Assembly (NCBI RefSeq): GCF_035084215.1
Contig: NC_090329.1
Span: 41,354,001 to 41,418,000, forward strand
Direction of reading: 5' to 3'
DNA from: Heptranchias perlo
Taxonomy: Eukaryota
DNA: 64,000 nt
Shown: positions 30,770 through 51,952 of the stretch, piece by piece
Numbering within the stretch: position 1 is the first letter of the stretch
Layout: each line of letters opens with the position of its first letter
Translations under genes and position numbers: made by a program
The notes under the pieces: model-generated
Database searches by the model: none
What the model was told of the DNA's origin: nothing
Seen by the model: the letters and a program-made list of their open reading frames with translations, nothing else

Positions 30770-33700
30770 CCTGGGAGTCAAAGACAAGCATTGATCATGA
30801 TCAAACAAATCAGAGAGTTAAATGTGTGGCTCAACGAATGATATGGGAAACACGGGTTTCGATTCATGGGGCACAGGCACCAGTACCGGGGAAAGAGGGA
30901 GCTGTTCCGTTGGGATGGGTTCCACTTAAATCAGGCTAGGACTAGCGTCCTGGTGAATCGAATAACTAGGGCTGTAGATAGGGCTTTAAACTAAAAGGGG
31001 GGGGAGGGGTCAGGTGAGGGGAAAGTTAGAAATCTAATGAGAAAAGTCAAGGCAACAGAGCAGTGTAGTGACTTGGGTAAAGGTAAGCAGAGTGTGGCAG
31101 GAAGGGACAGAGAGTTTACCAATAATAGAGCATCAACAAGTAAGGTCAAAGCAGGAAAAAATGGTAAAAAGTCAAAATTAAAGACTTTATCTGAATGCAC
31201 AGAGCATTCATAATTACAGACACATGGTTGCAAAATGACCAAGACTGGGAATTAAATATTCCAGGGTACATGCCATTTAGAAAAGACAGGCAGAATGGAA
31301 AAGGTGTGGGAGTAGCCCTTTTAATAAAGGATGACATAAGGACAGTGGTGAGAAAGGATCTTGGCTCGGAAGATCCGGAAGCAGAATCAGTATGGGTGGA
31401 AATAAGAAATAACAAGGGCCCCCTAATAATAGCTATACTGTTGGACAAAGTATTAATCATGACATAATAGGAGCTTGTCTCAAAGGTAATGCAGTAATCA
31501 TGGGGGACCTTAATCTTCATATAGACTGGACAAATCAAATTAGTAAAGGTAGTTTGGAGGACAAGTTCATTGAATGCATTCACGATGGTTTCCTAGGGCA
31601 ATACATCATGGAACCAACCAGGGAACAGACTATTTTAGATCTTGTATTATGTAATGAGACAGGGTTAATTAGAAATCTCACAGTAAAAGATCCCCTGGGG
31701 AAGAGCGATCATGACATGATAGAATTTCACATGAGTTTGAGAGTGACATACTTAAGTTCGAAAACAGAGTCTTAAAATTAAATAAAGCCAATTATATAGG
31801 TATAAGGGGTGAGTTGGCTAAGGTAGATTGGGAAATTAAATTAAAGGGTATGACTGTTGAAAAGCAATGGCAAACATTTAAAGAAATATTTCAATATTCT
31901 CAACAAATACACATTCCATTGAGAAATAAAAACTCCATGGGAAAAGTGGTCCAACTGTGGCTAACTAAAGAAGCTGAGGCTAGTATTAGATTAAAAGAGG
32001 CCTATAATGTTGCCAAGAAGAGTAGAAAACCTAAGGGTTAGGAGAGTTTTAGAAACCAGCAAAGGACAACTAAAAAAATTGATGATAAGGGAGAAAATAG
32101 AATATGAAAGTAAACTAGCAAGAAATATAAAAATGGATTGTAAGGGCTTCTACAAGTATGTAAAAAAGAGAATAGCAAAAGTAAATGTTGGTCCCCTAGA
32201 GGCTGAGGCAGGATAAACTATAATGGGGAAACAGGAAATGGCAGATTTGTTAAACAAATATTTTGTATCTGTCTTCACAGTAGAAGACTCAAAAAGTATA
32301 CCAGAAATAGTGGGGAACAAAGGGGCTAATGAGAGGGAGAAACTTAAAATAATTATTACCAGTAGAGAAAAAGTACTTGAGAAACTAATGGGACTAAAAG
32401 CCAATAAATCCCCTGGACCTGATGGCTTACGTCCGAGGGTTCTAAAAGAGGTGGCTGCAGAGATAGTGGATGCATTGGTTGTGATTTTCCCAAATTCCCT
32501 AGATTCTAGGACAGGCCCAGCAGATTGAAAGGTAGCTAATGTAACCCCGCTATTCAAGAAGGGAGGGAGAGAGAAAACAGGGACCTACATGCCAGTTGGA
32601 CTGACATCGGTCGTTGGAAAAATGCTGGAATCCATTATTCAGGAAGAGGTAACGGAGCACTTAGGAAATCATAATATGATTAGGCAGAGTCAACATGGTT
32701 TTATGAAAGGGAAATTGTCTTTGACAAATTTATTAGAGTTTTTGAGAATGTAACTAGCAGGGTAGATAAAGGAGAACCAGTGGATGTATTATATTTGGAT
32801 TTTCAAAAGGCATTCAATAAGGTGCCATGGGGTTGGGGGTAACATATTAGCATGGATAGAGGATTGGGTAAAGGACAGAAAACAGAGAGTAGGGATAAAT
32901 GGTCATTTTCAGGTTGGCAGGCTGTAACTAGTGGGGTACCGCAAGGATCAGTGCTAGGGCGTCAGTTATTTACAATCTTTATTAATGACTTGGATGAAGG
33001 GACCGAATGTAGTGTATCCAAGTTTGCTGATGATACAAAGCTAGGTGGGAAAGCAAGCTGTGAGGAGGATACAAAGAGTCTGCAAAGGGATATAGACAAG
33101 TTAAGTGAGTGGGCAAAAAGGTGGCACATGGAGTATAATGTGGGGAAATGTGAGTTTATTCACTTTGGTAGGAAGAATAGAAAAACAGAATATTTTTTAA
33201 ATGGTGAGAAAGTATTAAATGTTGGTGTCCAGAGAAACTTGGGTGTCCTCGTACAAGAAACAGAAAATGTTAGCATGCAGGTATAGCAAGCAATTGGTAA
33301 GGCAAATGGCATGTTGGCATTTATTGCAAGGGGGTTGGAGTACAACAGTAAGGAAGTCTTACTACAATTGTACAGGGCTTTGGTCAGACCTCACCTGGAG
33401 TACTGGGTACAGTTTTGCTCTCCTTATCTAAGGAAGGATATACTTGCCTTAGAGGCGGTGCGACGAAGGTTCACTAGATTAATTCCTGGGATGAGAGGAT
33501 TGTCCTATGAGGAGAGGTTGAGTAGAATGGGCCTATACTCTCTGGAAGAAGAATGAGAGGTGATCTCATTGAAACATATAAGATTCTAAGGGGTCTTGAC
33601 AGGGTAGATGCTGAGAGGTTGTTTCTCCTGGCTTTGGAGTTTAGAACTAGGGGGCATAGTCTCAGGATAAGGGGTCGGCCATTTAAGACTGAGATGAGGA

Positions 33701-43963: not shown

Positions 43964-44000
43964 AGTTAATGTTTCAGGTTAATGACCCTTTGTCAGAACT
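43964..44000 (-). ncRNA. Degenerate hammerhead copy
   Basis: Reverse complement AGUU-CUGACAA-AGGGUCAUUAACCU-GAAACAUU-AACU: G8 to A and a broken palindrome, consistent with CpG decay. Confidence 0.6.
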
Positions 44001-45205
44001 GGAAAAAGTTGAAGATTAAACAAATTTTAAGCAAGTACAGAGCCAGGCAAAGAGGGGGAGGGGTGGAAAGAACATAAGGGAAGGTCTATGATAGGGTTGA
44101 GGGCAGGAGCGATCAAATGACAAAAGGGATGATGGCAAGGAAGGTGGTAATGGGACAGGTTTTAAAGAAATATTTCAATATTCTAAACAAATATACATTC
44201 CATTGAGAAATAAAAACTCTGTGGGAAAAGTGATCCATCCGTGGCTAACTAAAGAAGTTAAGGAGAGCATTAGATTGAAAGAAGAAGCCTATAATGTTGC
44301 CAAGAAGAGTAATAAGTCTGGGGATTGGGAGAATTTTAGAAACCAACAAAGGATGACCCAAAAAATTGATAAAAAGGGAGAAAATAGAATATGGAAGTAA
44401 ACTAGCAAGAAATATAAAAACAGATTGTAAGAGCTTCTACAAGTATGTAAAAAGGAAGAGAGTAGCAAAAGTAAACGTTGGTCCCTTAGAGGCTGAGGCA
44501 GGAGATTACACAGTGTGCTGAGAGTTCGGTAAGTGTGGGAGTTGAAGGGTTAATCTCTTTAAATCTAGTGCGTACTGCTTCAACTGTTTAAGGTCAATTT
44601 AAAAGTTTAAATTTCTAAGTTTCTGTCAGGCTTCAGCAGAGAGCTGCTGTAGCAAGTTAATTGGTTAGCTAGATTCAATTGGTACCTGAAGGTGGGGCAG
44701 GCCTGACTCATCTGAGTCTCAACTGTAGAAATACAGGGGCCTGTCAGTGTGGACTGCACGGTGTGCGGATATTACACAGTGTACTGAGAGTTTGGTAAGT
44801 GTGGGAGTTTGGTGAAGTGGGGGAAGGAGGTTCTGCTTTGCCTTGCTTTTCCAAACTTTTCCTGCAGAGCGGTAGTGGACCTGAGAGTAGAAGACTGAGA
44901 TTGTGGAATAAAAGCAGCAGCAGACCTGCACCAAGAGACAACTACTGTGCGACATCACAGGGACTCAACTCCTGGACCTAAGATAAATAAGAAGCAAAAA
45001 GTAATCCAAGTGGGACGTCACCAAGGAAGAGGTAAGTGATTGGCTGGTGAGTATTTTCCTGCTGAATTTGTCAAAGGTTAGAGTCTGTGGATTCTCGGGT
45101 CTCTGTTGTGTCGTGGGGGACTGCTGTTCAGCAAGGGCCCTTGAGTATACCTTTTTAATTGAAGTGAAATTGGTGTGATTCATTTAATTAGTTAAAGGGT
45201 AAGTC

Positions 45206-46156
45206 ATGTCAGGACAGCCCAGCCCTGTGTTATGCTCTTCCTGCTCTATGTGGGAAATCAGGGACCCTTCCGGTGTCCCTGACGACCATGTGTGCGGGAA
45301 ATGTATCCAGCTGCAGCTACTGACAAACCGCATTGCGGCACTGGAGCTGCGGATGGATTCATTAAGGAGCATTCGCGATGCTGAGAACGTCGTGGATAGC
45401 ACGTTTAGTGAGATGGTCACACCGCAGGTAAAGGTTGTACAGGCAGGAAGTAATTGGGTGACCACCAGGCAGAGTAAGAAGAGCAGGCAGGCAGTGCAGG
45501 GGTCCCCTGTGGCCGTCCCCCTCTCAAACAAATATACCGCTTTGGATATTGTTGAGGGGGATGACTTATCAGGGGAAGGCAGCAGCAGCCAACTTCCTGG
45601 CACCAGGGGTAGCTCTGCTGCACAGGCTGGGAGGAAAAAGAGTGGAAGAGCTATAGTGGTAGGGGATTCTATCGTAAGGGGAACAGACAGGCGTTTCTGT
45701 GGCCGTAAACGTGACTCCAGGATGGTTTGTTGCCTCCCTGATGCCAGGGTCATGGATGTCACTGAGCGGCTACAGGGCATTCTCAAGGGGGAGGGGGAGC
45801 AGGCAGAGGTCGTGGTCCACATTGGGACCAACGACATAGGTAGGAAGGGAGATGAGGTCCTGCATCAAGAATTTAGGGAGCTAGGTAGCAGATTAAAGAG
45901 CAGGACCTCAAAGGTTGTAATCTCTGGATTACTCCCAGTGCCACGGGCTAGTGAGTATAGAAATAGGAGGATAGAACAGATGAATGCGTGGCTAAAGAGT
46001 TGGTGCAGGAGGGAGGGTTTCAGTTTCCTGGATCACTGGGCCTGCTTCTGGGGAAGGTGGGACTTGTACAAGTCGGACGGGTTGCACCTGAACCAGAGTG
46101 GGACAAATATCCTTGCGGGGAGGTTTGCTAGCACTGTTGGGGGGGGTTTAAACTAA
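45206..46156 (+). CDS. CR1 ORF1p: CxxC-CxxC zinc finger, coiled coil, SGNH esterase domain
   Basis: CSSC...CGKC, LTNRIAALELRMDSL, VGDS, HIGTND and DGLH; 316 aa uninterrupted. Confidence 0.93.
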   Translation: MSGQPSPVLCSSCSMWEIRDPSGVPDDHVCGKCIQLQLLTNRIAALELRMDSLRSIRDAENVVDSTFSEMVTPQVKVVQAGSNWVTTRQSKKSRQAVQGSPVAVPLSNKYTALDIVEGDDLSGEGSSSQLPGTRGSSAAQAGRKKSGRAIVVGDSIVRGTDRRFCGRKRDSRMVCCLPDARVMDVTERLQGILKGEGEQAEVVVHIGTNDIGRKGDEVLHQEFRELGSRLKSRTSKVVISGLLPVPRASEYRNRRIEQMNAWLKSWCRREGFSFLDHWACFWGRWDLYKSDGLHLNQSGTNILAGRFASTVGGGLN

Positions 46157-49073
46157 CTTGGCAGGGGGATGGGATACAGAGTGGAGCTACAATAGTGGGT
46201 GATGTGCAGCCATATATAGAGAAAAAAACAAGTCAGCTTGGAAGACAGGGCAAATATGTGAGGGCAAGGTTGGATGGCATCTATTTTAATGCAAGGAGTC
46301 TTGCGAATAAGGTGGATGAACTGAAGGTGTTGTTAAACACATGGGAGTATGATATTGTTGCTGTCACAGAGACATGGTTGAGGGAGGGGCAAGACTGGCA
46401 GCTCAATATTCCGGGGTACAGAATCTTCAGGCGAGACAGAGGGGGAGGTATAAGAGGAGGGGGGGTCGCAATATTAATTAAAGAATCAATTACTGCCATA
46501 AGGAGGGATGATATATTAGCAGGTTCCTCTAATGAGGCCATATGGGTGGAGCTTAAAAACAAAAAGGGGGCAAGCACTTTGATGGGAGTGTACTATAGGC
46601 CCCCAAACAGTCAGGGGGAGATAGAGGAACAGATATGTAGGCAAATCTCAGAAAATTGTGCAAATAATAGGGTAATAATAGTGGGGGATTTCAACTTCCC
46701 CAATATTAACTGGGATACTCAGAGTGTAAAAGGCTTAGAGGGTACAAAATTCTTAACGTGCATCCAGGAGAGCTTTTTGAGCCAGCATGTAGAAAGTCCT
46801 ACAAGAGAGGGGGCGGTACTGGACCTAATTCTAGGGAATGTGGCCGGCCAAGTGGAAGAAGTGCTAGTAGGTGAACACTTTGGTGACAGTGACCATAATT
46901 CGGTGAGATTTAAGGTGGTCATGGAAAAGGACAGGGAGGGGCCGGAAATAAAGGTTCTAAATTGGGGGAAGGCCGATTTTAATAGGATAAGGCAGGATCT
47001 GGCCAAAATGGACTGGGATCAGCTGCTTGTAGGAAAATCCGCATCGGAGCAATGGGAGTCTTTCAGAAGGGAGATTGAGACCATACAATGGCAACATGTT
47101 CCCGTAAAGGTCAAGGGTGGTTCCAAGAACTCCAGGGAACCTTGGATGTCAGGGGATATACGAGAATGGATTAGGAAAAAAAGGAGGGCTTTTGGCAGAT
47201 ACAAAAGGCTAAAGACGGAGGAAACCCTAGAGGAGTACAAAAAGTGCAGGGGGATACTTAAAAAAGAAATTAGGAGATCAAGGAGGGGCCATGAAATAAC
47301 ACTGGCGAGCAAAATAAAGGAAAATCCTAAGATGTTTTATAAGTATATTAAGGGTAAGAGGATGACTAGGGGAAAAAATAGGGCCCATTAGGGACAAAAA
47401 TGGCAATCTGTGTGTGGAGCCGGCAGATGTAGGAGGGGTTCTAAATGAATTTTTTGCATCTGTTTTCACTATGGAGAAGGACGATGTAGATATAGAAATA
47501 CGGCAGGGGGACTGTGATATACTCTAACGTATTAACATCGAGCGGGAGGAGGTATTGGCGGTTTGAGCAGGCCTAAAAATGGATAAATCCCCAGGCCCGG
47601 ACGAAATGTATCCCAGGCTACTGTGTGAGGCAAAGGAGGAGATTGCAGGGGCTCTAACACATATATTCAGAACCTCTCTGGCCACAGGGGATGTGCCAGA
47701 GGACTGGAGAACCGCTAATGTAGTACCATTATTCAAGAAGGGGTAGGGAAAAACCGGGGAACTACAGGCCAGTGAGCCTAACATCAGTGGTAGGAAAATT
47801 ATTGGAAAAAATTCTGAAGGACAAAATTAGTTTCCACTTGGAGAAGCAAGGATTAATCAGGGATAATCAACATGGCTTTGTCAAGGGAAGATCATGTCTG
47901 ACTAATTTGATTGAATTTTTTGAGGGAGTGACTAGGCGTGTGGATGAGGGTAACGCAGTGGATGTGGTATACATGGATTTCAGTAAGGCCTTCGATAAAG
48001 TCCCCCACAGGAGACTGGTCAAGAAGGTACGAGCCCATGGAATCCAGGGTGCCTTGGCACTTTGGATACAAAACTGGCTTAGTGGCAGAAGGCAGAGGGT
48101 GATGGTCGAAGGTTGTTTTTGTGACTGGAAGCCTGTGGCCAGTGGGGTACCACAGGGATCGGTGCTGGGTCCCTTGCTGTTTGTGGTCTACATTAATGAC
48201 TTGGATATGAATGTCAAAGGTATGATCAGTAAGTTCGCTGATGATACAAAGATTGGTAGGGTGGTAAATAGCGAGGAGGATAGCCTCAGTCTGCAGGACG
48301 ATATAGATGGGTTGGTCAGATGGGCGGAACAGTGGCAAATGGAATTTAACCCGGAAAAGTGCGAGGTGATGCACTTTGGAGGGACTAACAAGGCAAGGGA
48401 ATACACAATGAATGGGAGGACCCTAGGCAAGACAGAGGGTCAGAGGGATCTTGGTGTGCAAGTTCACAGATCCCTGAAGGCGGCGGAATAGGTAGATAAG
48501 GTGGTAAAGAAGGCATATGGGATACTTGCCTTTATTAGCCGAGTCATAGAATATAAGAGCAAGGAGGTTATGATGGAGCTGTATAAAACACTGGTTAGGC
48601 CACAGCTGGAGTACTGTGTGCAGTTCTGGTCGCCACACTACAGGAAGGATGTGATCGCTTTGGAGAGGGTGCAGAGGAGATTCACCAGGATGTTACCAGG
48701 GCTGGAGCGCTTCAGCTATGAAGAGAGACTGGGAAGATTGGGTTTGTTTTCCTTGGAGCAGAGGAGGCTGAGGGGGGACATGATTGAGGTGTACAAAATT
48801 ATGAGGGGCACAGATAGGATGGATACTAAGGAGCTTTTTCCCTTCGTTAAGGGTTCTATAACAAGGGGACATAGATTCAAGGTAAAAGGCGGGAGGTTTA
48901 GAGGGGATTTGAGAAAGAACTTTTTCACCCAGAGGGTGGTTGGAGTCTGGAACTCACTGCCTGAAAGGGTTGTGGAGGCAGGAACCCTCACAACATTCAA
49001 GAAGCATTTGGATGAGCACTTGAAATGCCATAGCATACAAGGCTACGGACCAAATGCTGGAATATGGGATTAG
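46147..49073 (+). pseudogene. CR1 ORF2 (APE endonuclease plus reverse transcriptase), disrupted
   Basis: NARS, ETW, YYRPP, GDFN, SDH, QHGF, PQGS and FADD motifs; frameshifts near 47370 and 47740, stops near 47526, 47564 and 48489. Confidence 0.93.
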
Positions 49074-50019
49074 AGTAGACCGGGCTGATGGCCGGCGCGG
49101 ACACGATGGGCCGAAGGGCCTCTATCCGCGCTGTATAACTCTATGACTCTAAATTATAATGGGGTATCAGGAAATGACAGATGCGTTATTTTGTATCTGT
49201 CTTCACAGTGGAAGACACAAAAAGCTTCCCAAAAATAGTGGGGAACCAAGGGGTAAATGAGAGTGAGAAACTTAAAATAATTAATATCACCAGAGAAAAA
49301 GTACTGGACTAACTAATGGGACTAAAAGCCAACAAATCCCCTGGACCTGATGGCCTACATCCTAGGGTTCTAAAAGAGGTGGCTGCAGAGATAGTGGATG
49401 CATTGGTTGTGATCTTCCAAAATTCTCTAGATTCTAGAACGGTCCCAGTGGACTGGAAGGTAGCAAATGTTACCCCGCTATTCAAGAAGGGAGGGAGAGA
49501 GAAAACAGGGAAATACAGGCCAGTTTGCCTGACATCAGTCGTCAGGAAAATGTTGGAATCCATTATTAAGGAAGTGGTAACAGGGCACTTAGAAAATCAT
49601 GGTATGGTTCGGCAGAGTTAACATGGTTTTATGAAAGGGAAATCGTGTTTGACAAATTTATTAGAGTTTTTTGAGGATGTAACTAGCAGGGTAGATAAAG
49701 GGGAACCAGTGGATGTAGTATATTTGGATTTTCAAAAGGCATTCGATAATGTGCCACACAAGAGGTTGTTACACAAGATTAGGGCTCATGGGGTTGGGGG
49801 TAATATATTGGCATGAATAGAGGATTGGTTAACGGACAGAAAACAGAGAGTAGGGATAAACGTGTCATTCTCAGGTTGGCAGGCTGTAACTAGTGGGGAG
49901 CCGCAAGGATTGACGCTGGGGCCTCAGCTGTTTACAATCTATATCAATGACTTAGATGAAGGGACCGAGTGTAATGTATCCAAGTTTGCTGACGATACAA
50001 AGCTAGGTGGGAAAGTAAG

Positions 50020-50275
50020 ATACAAAAGGGTCCAGAGGGGCAATTTTTTCACTCAAAGGGTGGTGAGTGTCTGGAACGAGCTGCCAGAGGCAGTAGTAGA
50101 GGCGGGTACAATTTTGTCTTTTAAAAAGCATTTGGACAGTTACATGGGTAAGATGGGTATAGAGGGATATGGGCCAAGTGCAGGCAACTGGGACTAGCTT
50201 AGTGGTATAAACTGGGCGACATGGACATGTTGGGCCGAAGGGCCTGTTTCCATGTTGTAAACTTCTATGATTCTA
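50020..50275 (+). mobile_element. Short CR1 3' fragment with TAAG duplication
   Basis: TAAG at 50016-50019 and 50276-50279; [14 protein letters not shown]; tail ttctatgattcta. Confidence 0.88.
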
Positions 50276-50294
50276 TAAGCTGTGAGGAGGACAC

Positions 50295-51952
50295 TTGGGG
50301 CGCTAAATTGGGCCGCGTAGTGCCCGTTGTTTCGGCGCTACACGGCCTCTCCGACATCCAAGACACCATCTTGGTATAAGAGTTAGCGCAGGCGCAGATA
50401 ACGAACGCTGGAATCATGTAACGTAGGGAGAAAATGGCATCAATTAATGTGCAAAGCTGATTTAAAGTGATAGACACCATTTTGGGACTCAACGCTCAAC
50501 TCAATGCACAGTCTTAACCCCGACCATCTGAACATGTTTTAGAGTGCCTGGAGGACCCCCCATCAGTGCTATTTAAAGGGACCATGCAGGATTTACAGGT
50601 TAGTGGCTGGATTATTGCTTCTGGCTGCCGAGACATTTGTAACTGTTTTTGGAGGTCTCCTAGACTTGAATACTAAGACTAGGGGACATAGCCTAACATT
50701 TAGAGCAGGACATGCAGGAGTGAAGTTAGGAAATCCTTCTGCACGCAAATTGTGGGAGACATTTGGAACGCTCTTCTGCAGACAGCAGTTGATGCTAGCT
50801 CACTTGTGAATGTTAAATCTGAGATTGATAGATTTCTGTGAATCAAGAGCATTAAGGGATATGGGGCTAAGGCGGGTATATGGAGTGAGATCTCAGGTCC
50901 ACCATAATCTCATTGAATGGCGGAACAAGCTCGAGGGGCTAAATGCCACTGCCACTTGCTGCCTCTTGATGTGCGCCGCCTTCTCCTGCAAGAAAGCGAA
51001 ACGTGAGCCAGGGTGATGTGCCTCTCATGGTTGAATAGCTGCCAGTGTGTGTGGCCTGTGAATTGTGGGTGGGTGGGCTTGCAACAGTGGTAATGTGTGA
51101 GGGTGAGAGGAATCATCTGGTTGGAAGAGTTGAGTACTGATGGAAAGAGTTTATTGGTATGTAGAGGATAGGGGGGTGTAGTGCGTGGAGCAGTTGGTAG
51201 GAGACGCCACTTGACAGTTGACCTCACTCACCTTGACCACTCATGTCAAAGCATTGAACTTCTTCCCGCACTGCATCCATGTTCATGATGCTGTGCGCCT
51301 GGCATTGACTTCGTCCCCCGCTGCCTCCCACTGTCTTTTGGATATATGTTTGGAGGGCCTCTTGCCCACCACCCCCACCCACCCCCCCCCCCACCATTCT
51401 GCGAATATAGGATGTCCCTCTTTCTGTCCGCCTCTTGTACCAAGGTCTCTAGTGCTTCAGCAGAGAACCTTGGTGCATGCACTCTCGCAGGCCTGGTACC
51501 AACTCAGATCGGCAGATTGGTGAGGTCTGGCGTGCAGATTGGAGGATGTGGGATTTAGTAGTGTGCAACCTTTATTCAATGTTTTAACATAACTGATCAG
51601 TGTGTAAATATAGGGATGGGACCTGCATCTGTATTTTATGTGTGCGATGTCTGATCTCCGTTCAGACTCCGTGCAGACAGTAGACTGTTCTTTTCAGCAA
51701 ATAACAGGTACCAGCTCCCTTTAAGAGATTTCCAAGAAACACCCTTCCTTTAAGAGAGTGAGCTCCCTCTGGTGGTAGAAACTGAAAATTGCATTAATTC
51801 CACGTGCAGGGCCTGGAATGGAACACTGATTGCAGATAAGTCCTCGGGTGGGCCGAAACGTGCGTCCTGCCTGCGCAGGGGTCATTGGGCGCGGGGTAAT
51901 AGCACATCACGTGACCTACGCCCAAAAACAGACCCTATCAAATTTTACCCCC
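50295..51952 (-). mobile_element. PIF/Harbinger-type DNA transposon derivative with a spliced Myb/SANT ORF remnant; contains a CR1 3' fragment at about 50660-50942
   Basis: Imperfect terminal inverted repeats (ggggcgctaaatt versus reverse complement gggggtaaaattt). Minus-strand APRFSAEALETLVQE...QWEAAGDEVNA...TWMQCGKKFNAL. The host CR1 resumes precisely after it. Confidence 0.75.

What the first reader, a model, noticed from the sequence alone, without database searches (positions are those of the whole stretch)
46147..46197. Candidate programmed -1 ribosomal frameshift joining CR1 ORF1 and ORF2
Seen: ORF1 ends GGT TTA AAC TAA, giving a correctly phased U_UUA_AAC heptamer (46147-46153) directly before the stop. 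The -1 frame is open from there (TTT AAA CTA ACT TGG CAG GGG GAT...) into the endonuclease. The first in-frame AUG comes only at STLMGVYY, after the conserved NARS and ETW motifs, so AUG initiation would give a broken endonuclease. Established: U_UUA_AAC is the coronavirus X_XXY_YYZ slippery site, while mammalian L1 ORF2 uses termination-reinitiation. Inference: this CR1 makes an ORF1-ORF2 fusion, in the manner of Gag-Pol. I see no obvious pseudoknot, but G-runs follow the stop. I cannot tell whether this has already been described for CR1.
Basis: partly seen in the sequence, partly recalled or inferred. Interest (0 to 1): 0.82.

Follow-up and report, generated by a model that had tools for sequence, protein, structure and literature searches.

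The report
Vertebrate CR1 LINE ribosomal frameshift
An abundant vertebrate jumping gene (a CR1 LINE) ends its first gene in a conserved, virus-type slippery sequence and continues its start-less second gene one base back, so it likely makes its copying enzyme as a fusion protein when ribosomes slip, as retroviruses do for Gag-Pol.

Summary
Confirmed. ORF1 (esterase type) ends T TTA AAC TAA at 46147-46156. ORF2 is open in the -1 frame, and its first ATG lies 98 codons inside the endonuclease. In this genome 180 of 189 copies keep TTTAAAC before the stop. In 10 of 11 linker classes (134-374 nt) the modal length puts ORF2 in the -1 frame. The motif also ends ORF1 in published CR1 consensi from 12 vertebrate species codes. 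In distant ORF1 relatives the same position switches among Leu-Asn, Gly-Asn and Lys-Asn, the dipeptides of the three classic slippery sites (60 of 109; shuffled mean 10.6). One relative with DNA shows G_GGA_AAC and a -1 ORF2. Other relatives have ORF2 in frame behind a single UGA. No hairpin or pseudoknot stem was found; a G-tract 5-9 nt downstream is a candidate G-quadruplex stimulator. Best reading: -1 programmed frameshift giving an ORF1-ORF2 fusion (about 0.8, untested). Main rival: AUG-independent reinitiation, as in L1. This copy's ORF2 is broken. Ten paper searches found no CR1 report, but the 1997 and 2003 CR1 papers were not seen. The scan noted the same motif before in another genome.

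The parts
44501..49151 (+). Full-length CR1 LINE copy of a young family (about 1% mean divergence among copies); ORF2 inactivated
   Evidence: 5' limit where sister copies start to match; short-repeat 3' tail near 49134-49151; divergence
45206..46156 (+). ORF1, 316 aa: N-terminal Cys motif plus SGNH/GDSL esterase, ending ...GGLN-stop
46147..46153 (+). Slippery heptamer U_UUA_AAC (X_XXY_YYZ), phased in ORF1
   Evidence: listed among the most shift-prone heptamers in PMC5009743 (passage)
46154..46156 (+). ORF1 stop codon directly after the heptamer (TAA here; TAG or TGA in other families)
46160..46173 (+). Conserved G-tract starting 6 nt after the heptamer; candidate G-quadruplex stimulator (predicted, untested)
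   Evidence: contigs in three public runs diverge from this copy at 46174 (table 7)
46153..46287 (+). AUG-less linker read in the -1 frame (LTWQGDG...ARLDGIYF) joining the slip site to the endonuclease
46288..46896 (+). APE-type endonuclease of ORF2, from the Asn of NARS; first in-frame ATG only at 46582
   Evidence: Pfam PF03372 residues 52-255 of the 46132 frame
47724..49073 (+). Reverse transcriptase part of ORF2, interrupted in this copy
   Evidence: Pfam RVT_1, E 6e-36; breaks
30985..30994 (+). Same heptamer plus stop at the ORF1 end of an older CR1 family copy
15073..15082 (-). Same heptamer plus stop (TAG) at the ORF1 end of a third CR1 family copy

Best explanation
Esterase-type CR1 LINEs likely make their endonuclease/reverse transcriptase as an ORF1-ORF2 fusion by programmed -1 ribosomal frameshifting at U_UUA_AAC, which lies directly before the ORF1 stop. 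Shown: the phased heptamer, the adjacent stop, the open AUG-less -1 linker and the conservation of all three. Inferred: most ribosomes stop at UAA/UAG and release ORF1p, while a minority slip back one base on UUA/AAC and read on (...GGLN then LTWQGDG...) into a protein of about 1,290 aa. Inferred with less support: the G-tract 5-9 nt downstream (a possible G-quadruplex or protein-binding site) and the stop codon itself cause the pause. This would fix a high ORF1p:ORF2p ratio and tether the polymerase to the ORF1p assembly, as in Gag-Pol.
For: (1) 180 of 189 copies with the stop at the expected codon keep TTTAAAC, across five lineage clusters 17-38% apart in ORF1 DNA. (2) Of 11 linker classes with 3 or more copies, 10 have a modal length in the -1 frame (134, 149, 164, 176, 197, 206, 206, 212, 275, 374 nt). 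Median stops in that frame are 0-1, against 1-13.5 in the other two frames; the shuffled chance of an open frame is 0.0005-0.03 per class. (3) In the two largest young families the first in-frame Met follows the endonuclease Asn in 50 of 52 and 34 of 36 copies scored. (4) 18 of 23 hits of TTTAAAC+stop in a published consensus library lie at ORF1 ends, from 12 species codes covering sharks, rays, chimaera, bowfin, a teleost, coelacanth, frog, lizard and crocodilians. None of 15 hits of synonymous variants does. (5) 60 of 109 distant ORF1 tails carry LN, GN or KN at this position (shuffled mean 10.6, maximum 22 of 2000). In 59 of the 60 the residue before allows the third X base. Only 1 of 72 LN-ending proteins has a residue at -3 that forbids the U, against 24% background. 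(6) These labels swap repeatedly on the tree: starred branches force at least 6, 6 and 3 changes for LN, GN and KN. In 12 of 16 KN proteins ORF1 runs 10-12 residues past the site, so the motif is not tied to the stop. (7) Locus L122 has G_GGA_AAC, a stop and an open -1 ORF2. (8) Other relatives keep ORF2 in frame behind a single stop: 27 frame-0 open loci (one, L185, misassigned), all TGA and 20 TGA-C. That is the layout expected of readthrough, a second route to the same fusion.
Against: No translation experiment was possible. No stable Watson-Crick structure follows the site (z -2.1 to +1.9 in 11 representatives), and in several families the predicted quadruplex has only two tiers, which is weak. 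The within-genome synonymous test is modest: 17 of 49 other invariant residues also keep one codon. One old family (24 copies) has a variable G-run after the stop, a modal +1 length and an in-frame ATG in its linker. A few small classes also carry a linker ATG (2 of 2, 2 of 3, 3 of 8). Overall 44 of 185 copies are not in the -1 frame. For LN/GN/KN relatives other than L122 and the vertebrate consensi there is no DNA, so their heptamers are inferred from protein. Many readthrough-type relatives have a Met in the linker (13 of 13 in the largest lineage). A search for longer relatives found no natural one-ORF fused family (3 hits, weak test). Many CR1 lineages lose ORF1 altogether (PMC13343379, passage).
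Confidence: 0.8

Rival explanations
1. AUG-independent termination-reinitiation, as described for mammalian L1: ribosomes stop at the ORF1 stop and restart in the -1 frame at or near the overlapping CUA codon, giving a free ORF2p.
For: The stop is adjacent in nearly all LN and GN cases (29 of 31 and 11 of 13). An open linker from the stop onward is predicted by this model too. L1 ORF2 initiation is described as independent of its AUG (PMC5009743, passage), and SART1 uses an overlapping UAAUG (PMC3894237, passage).
Against: It does not explain why the seven bases form X_XXY_YYZ, why they switch among LN, GN and KN, or why KN sites sit 10-12 codons before the stop in 12 of 16 proteins. No AUG overlaps the stop, and CUA differs from AUG at two positions.
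Confidence: 0.12
2. ORF2 starts independently inside the linker at a near-cognate codon (GUG/UUG) or a family-specific AUG, and the Leu-Asn end is kept for ORF1 protein function.
For: Some linker classes do carry an in-frame ATG, and the window's linker has in-frame GTG and TTG codons. Asn is the last residue in many ORF1 relatives.
Against: The whole linker is open and in frame from the heptamer on, over nine different lengths. No start codon is shared between families. Protein-level selection would not fix TTA, AAC and the wobble T under Gly, Ala, Asp or Thr codons.
Confidence: 0.05
3. The fusion or ORF2 is made at the RNA level, by polymerase slippage in the G-runs or T/A run, or by splicing that joins an upstream AUG to ORF2.
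For: Genomic copies with one extra G in the run before the heptamer fuse ORF1 to ORF2 (L210, 1,290-aa open frame), so these runs are indel-prone. The 5' UTR holds several GGTAAGT donor-like sites.
Against: The upstream G8 run is specific to one family while the heptamer is shared by all. The heptamer has only 3-base runs. No pyrimidine tract or shared acceptor precedes the endonuclease.
Confidence: 0.03

Closest known systems
Retroviral Gag-Pol and coronavirus ORF1a/1b -1 frameshifting (IBV site U_UUA_AAC)
   Same: [quoted passage not shown] Structural ORF upstream, polymerase ORF in -1, conserved element 5-9 nt downstream.
   Different: A non-LTR retrotransposon, not a virus; no pseudoknot or hairpin predicted; a G-tract instead; no protease in the element, so a fusion would presumably stay joined (inference).
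Dictyostelium TRE5-A and TRE3-A (APE-type non-LTR elements)
   Same: Said to need a -1 frameshift to translate ORF2 (figure legend of review PMC5911963; the primary paper was not held).
   Different: Different clade and ORF1 type; I did not see their slip sites or any assay. The CR1 case spans vertebrates and has interchangeable heptamers.
Mammalian L1 and silkworm SART1 ORF2 translation
   Same: Two-ORF LINE that must express a downstream endonuclease/RT ORF from one RNA.
   Different: These reinitiate and give free ORF2p (L1: spacer and AUG-independent initiation; SART1: overlapping UAAUG). Here ORF2 has no AUG before the endonuclease and overlaps a slippery site.
Paramecium non-LTR elements (groups 1-3)
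   Same: +1 frameshift, reinitiation or readthrough were proposed from sequence for ORF2 (PMC5405496, passage).
   Different: Separate ciliate clade; +1 or in-frame, not -1.
Synthetic G-quadruplex-stimulated -1 frameshifting
   Same: UUUAAAC plus a G4 gave about 7% frameshifting at a 6-8 nt spacer (PMC3919603, passages); the spacer here is 6 nt.
   Different: The construct tested had four G3 tracts; the tract here is GG/GGGGG/GGG, and folding is only predicted.

Membership tests
CR1 LINE with esterase ORF1 | ORF1 with SGNH/GDSL esterase | tested here: met
   PF13472, E 3.8e-15
CR1 LINE with esterase ORF1 | ORF2 with APE endonuclease then reverse transcriptase | tested here: met
   PF03372 and PF00078; broken in this copy
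CR1 LINE with esterase ORF1 | RT phylogeny places it in the CR1 clade rather than L2 | not tested
   No RT tree was built; the junction resembles, by eye, published shark and ray consensi labelled CR1
Canonical -1 programmed ribosomal frameshift | X_XXY_YYZ heptamer phased in the zero frame | tested here: met
Canonical -1 programmed ribosomal frameshift | Downstream ORF open in -1 from the heptamer, without its own start | tested here: met
   10 of 11 linker classes in -1; no shared AUG
Canonical -1 programmed ribosomal frameshift | Heptamer conserved at nucleotide level beyond protein need | tested here: met
   the within-genome test alone is modest
Canonical -1 programmed ribosomal frameshift | Stimulatory pseudoknot or hairpin 5-9 nt downstream | tested here: not met
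   No stable local hairpin in 11 representatives; the region is purine-rich. Pseudoknots were not modelled directly and long-range pairing was not tested
Canonical -1 programmed ribosomal frameshift | Some other conserved stimulator at the right spacing | tested here: inconclusive
   Compact 4xGG motif starts 5-9 nt downstream in 10 of 12 representatives, background 2%; the representatives are related and function is untested
Canonical -1 programmed ribosomal frameshift | Measured transframe product | not testable with these tools
   needs a reporter assay or proteomics
Stop-start (AUGA/UAAUG) termination-reinitiation | AUG overlapping or close to the upstream stop | tested here: not met
   first in-frame ATG is 428 nt downstream of the stop

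The most novel reading that the evidence does not exclude
Esterase-ORF1 LINEs as a whole make a Gag-Pol-like ORF1-ORF2 fusion by translational recoding. [quoted passage not shown] This would be one of the oldest and most repeated frameshift signals in vertebrate genomes, and the annotated ORF2 start of CR1 would be wrong.
Probability: 0.35. Interest if true: 0.92.

Novelty: new variant of a known kind. Interest (0 to 1): 0.78.

Why it matters
How LINEs translate ORF2 is called an open question in the reviews read, and CR1-group elements are the dominant retrotransposons of most vertebrates (22-34% of shark and ray genomes; PMC13343379). A -1 frameshift would mean that their polymerase is a fusion with the esterase ORF1p, a type shown to bind membrane lipids in a zebrafish LINE (PMC3905857). 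That strengthens the Gag analogy and changes how CR1 ORF2 should be annotated and expressed. It would also put these elements within reach of host factors that act on frameshifting. The signal is about 30 nt long and can be tested with one reporter assay. The G-tract is a candidate for a natural G-quadruplex stimulator, which a 2016 review called not yet known but anticipated; a 2026 paper reports G4s promoting repeat-associated frameshifting in human genes (PMC12809536, search listing only).

Tried and rejected
Local RNA hairpin stimulator: none above shuffles. DNA of distant relatives: three scans of viral contigs and two of genome contigs found nothing, so the KN and most GN relatives rest on protein alone. 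Longer or fused ORF1 relatives: 3 hits, none a clear single-ORF family; P0240 is a gene model through a frameshifted ray copy and reads GFKL at the junction. PDB sequence search: nothing at E 0.001, and only a weak exonuclease III match (E 0.56) aligning NARS and ETW with its first motifs; not counted as evidence. Expression: no RNA holder listed. Splicing: none of the 12 joints listed from contigs of four runs has GT..AG ends, but contigs cannot show absence. A branch-point/acceptor reading of CTAAC...CAG was dropped because it is not shared between families. A stricter motif-based classification of metagenome junctions caught only 6 loci and was replaced by the tblastn-based one. TTTAAAT in L133 lies in the HLN motif and is followed by -1 stops, so it was rejected. 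[quoted passage not shown] Literature: ten searches showed no paper reporting a CR1 frameshift; term searches in PMC13343379, PMC4120745, PMC4316615, PMC11835228 and PMC5009743 found none either. Not seen: Kapitonov and Jurka 2003, Marschalek 1992, Nakamura 2012 and a presumed L1 ORF2 translation paper (ids not held). Haas 1997 and Kajikawa 1997 were seen only as reference-list entries and were not looked up. Any of these, or Repbase notes, may already mention the overlap.
Full report
Observation. The window lies in a 3.25-Gb genome. The closest named ORF1 relatives are from sharks and rays, so the host is inferred to be a cartilaginous fish. Bases 44501 to about 49151 are a full-length CR1-type LINE. 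ORF1 (45206-46156) is a GDSL/SGNH esterase type; ORF2 holds an APE endonuclease and a reverse transcriptase. ORF1 ends T TTA AAC TAA at 46147-46156. The -1 frame is open from 46132 to 47391, and the only ATG in that frame between 46100 and 46600 is at 46582, 98 codons after the Asn of NARS. Starting there would drop about 100 of the 204 residues matched by Pfam PF03372. This copy's ORF2 is broken further down. Two older CR1 copies of other families in the same window end ORF1 with the same heptamer and a stop.

Conservation in this genome. I fetched 250 loci with three DNA queries, one Pfam family and five protein queries. The DNA queries contained the junction; the other six searches ranked by ORF1 protein similarity. 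216 loci gave a usable region; the rest lacked the anchor motif, were cut short or were identical duplicates. Of these, 189 have the ORF1 stop 26 codons after the DGxH motif, and 180 of the 189 have TTTAAAC before it. Five lineage clusters 17-38% apart in ORF1 DNA all have NNT TTA AAC, with Gly or Ala in the first codon. Only 17 of 49 other invariant residues keep one codon across them, so this test alone is modest.

The linker. Of 185 copies with a locatable endonuclease motif, 141 have it in the -1 frame, 22 in 0 and 22 in +1. Grouped by linker sequence, 10 of 11 classes with three or more copies have a modal length in the -1 frame, from 134 to 374 nt. That frame has a median of 0-1 stops against 1-13.5 in the others, and a shuffled linker is open with probability 0.0005-0.03. 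The exception is an old family with a variable G-run after the stop and an in-frame ATG in its linker; its query copy may have biased the run length, so I count it as unresolved. In the two largest young families the first in-frame Met follows the endonuclease Asn in 50 of 52 and 34 of 36 copies scored; in the second family it is only 8 codons after. Some small classes do carry a linker ATG.

Other vertebrates. The supplement of PMC13343379 holds consensus sequences, of which only the first 400 characters per cell could be read. Of 23 hits for TTTAAAC plus a stop, 18 lie at an ORF1 end by my reading of the context. They come from 12 species codes, which I read as alligator, crocodile, bearded dragon, bullfrog, coelacanth, bowfin, a teleost, elephant shark, two rays and two sharks. 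All 15 hits for five synonymous variants before TAG lie elsewhere. This search was motif-driven and has no full denominator. Most hits show a G-run after the stop; a few gappy consensi do not. Three frameshifted proteins from the database read FKL at this place, the -1 translation of the heptamer.

Distant relatives. Among word-search homologues with an intact end, 48 of 55 finish in Leu-Asn. Among the 150 best 50%-identity representatives, 109 gave a distinct tail after DGxH. Sixty of these have LN, GN or KN at the homologous position, against a shuffled mean of 10.6 and a maximum of 22. Where Asn occurs there, the residue before is L, K or G in 60 of 74 cases, against 17% elsewhere in these proteins. 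In 59 of the 60 the preceding residue allows the X base, though background compatibility is already 78-88%. Only 1 of 72 LN-ending proteins has a residue at -3 that forbids a U, against 24% just upstream. These are the dipeptides of U_UUA_AAC, G_GGA_AAC and A_AAA_AAC, which PMC5009743 names among the most shift-prone sites (passages). On a quick tree of 113 rows the labels interchange: starred branches force at least 6, 6 and 3 changes. One well-supported clade mixes GN, KN, LN, GF and FF, and 12 of 16 KN proteins continue 10-12 residues past the site. DNA is at hand for one such relative, L122, which has G GGA AAC TAG, G-runs and an open -1 ORF2 with a Met in its linker.

A second layout. Of 80 metagenome loci, 39 had an endonuclease match downstream and 31 an open linker. 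Of these, 27 are in frame 0 (one, L185, has a misassigned stop), 3 in -1 and 1 in +1. All 27 end ORF1 with TGA and 20 with TGA-C; they form about ten lineages. That UGA-C, and UGA-CUA above all, is a readthrough context is recalled knowledge. Many of these linkers contain a Met, so readthrough is a lead, not a result. It does suggest that an ORF1-ORF2 fusion is the conserved goal.

Stimulator. No stable hairpin follows the site (z -2.1 to +1.9 in 11 representatives). A G-tract does: aligned at the stop, positions +10 to +19 are G in 9-12 of 12 representatives except at +15 and +16, and agreement then falls away. Gly codons in the first eight -1 codons are GGG in 23 of 32 cases, against 61 of 186 later. 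A compact four-GG motif starts 5-9 nt after the heptamer in 10 of 12, against a 2% background. The representatives are related, so these are not independent counts. Contigs from three public runs follow this copy to 46174 and then diverge. ViennaRNA with G-quadruplexes allowed places one there in 9 of 11. In synthetic constructs UUUAAAC plus a G4 gave about 7% frameshifting at a 6-8 nt spacer (PMC3919603, passages), but with four G3 tracts; several families here offer only two tiers.

Mechanism. Shown: heptamer, phase, stop, open AUG-less linker, conservation and heptamer switching. Inferred: tandem slippage on UUA/AAC gives ...GGLN-LTWQGDG... and a fusion of about 1,290 aa; that length is taken from a natural copy with one extra G that has a single 1,290-aa open frame. 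More weakly inferred: the G-tract and the stop cause the pause. I put -1 frameshifting at 0.8, AUG-independent reinitiation at 0.12, internal initiation at 0.05 and RNA-level routes at 0.03. The open linker does not separate the first two; the X_XXY_YYZ switching and the KN sites away from the stop do.

What is known. A -1 frameshift is stated for Dictyostelium TRE5-A and TRE3-A (PMC5911963, figure legend). +1 frameshift or readthrough is proposed for Paramecium elements (PMC5405496, passages). Reviews describe LINE ORF2 translation by reinitiation and call it unresolved (PMC5009743 and PMC3894237, passages). A 2026 survey of vertebrate CR1-group elements has no occurrence of frameshift, slippery, overlap or start codon in its main text. 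Ten searches found no CR1 report. The 1997 and 2003 papers that first described CR1 ORFs were not seen, so prior mention is possible. All papers were seen as passages or listings only, plus one supplement in part.

Verdict. A real, deeply conserved feature, most likely a programmed -1 frameshift: a new variant of a known mechanism in a group where I found no report of it. Interest 0.78.

Noticed in passing
L123, L124, L125, L127, L137 group, L147 group, L176 (metagenome loci): Esterase-ORF1 LINE relatives with ORF2 in frame 0 behind a single UGA, mostly UGA-C and often UGA-CUA/CUU; candidate stop-codon readthrough giving an ORF1-ORF2 fusion.
   Followed up: partly
L122, ORF1 end: G GGA AAC TAG followed by G-runs and an open -1 ORF2: a different canonical heptamer at the homologous site.
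   Followed up: yes
P0090, P0128, P0146, P0176, P0192, P0197, P0202, P0204, P0205, P0219: ORF1 tails with FF, FL or GF at the homologous position, compatible with U_UUU_UUN and G_GGU_UUU sites; no DNA to check.
   Followed up: partly
L210 (G000:C1:116529579-116533481, minus strand): A copy with one extra G before the heptamer has ORF1 and ORF2 in one 1,290-aa open frame; probably a homopolymer indel or an assembly error.
   Followed up: partly
window 44501-45210: The 5' UTR has a repeated unit (about 44501-44543, again near 44770-44810) and several GGTAAGT splice-donor-like sites, one just before the ORF1 ATG.
   Followed up: no
window 44000-44500 and 49150-50300: The element sits among fragments of other CR1 copies; ORF2-like sequence flanks it on both sides, suggesting nested insertion.
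   Followed up: no
L093, L094 linker classes: The 374-nt linker contains a second WQGVG-like block resembling the start of another family's linker, suggesting recombination between CR1 families with the frame preserved.
   Followed up: no
P0008, P0021, P0079, P0240, P0241: Database proteins named as a Pseudomonas hydrolase or as host genes (RPS24, TMEM204, HAO2, VSIG10L2 isoforms) contain CR1 ORF1 sequence: likely contamination or gene models running through repeats.
   Followed up: no
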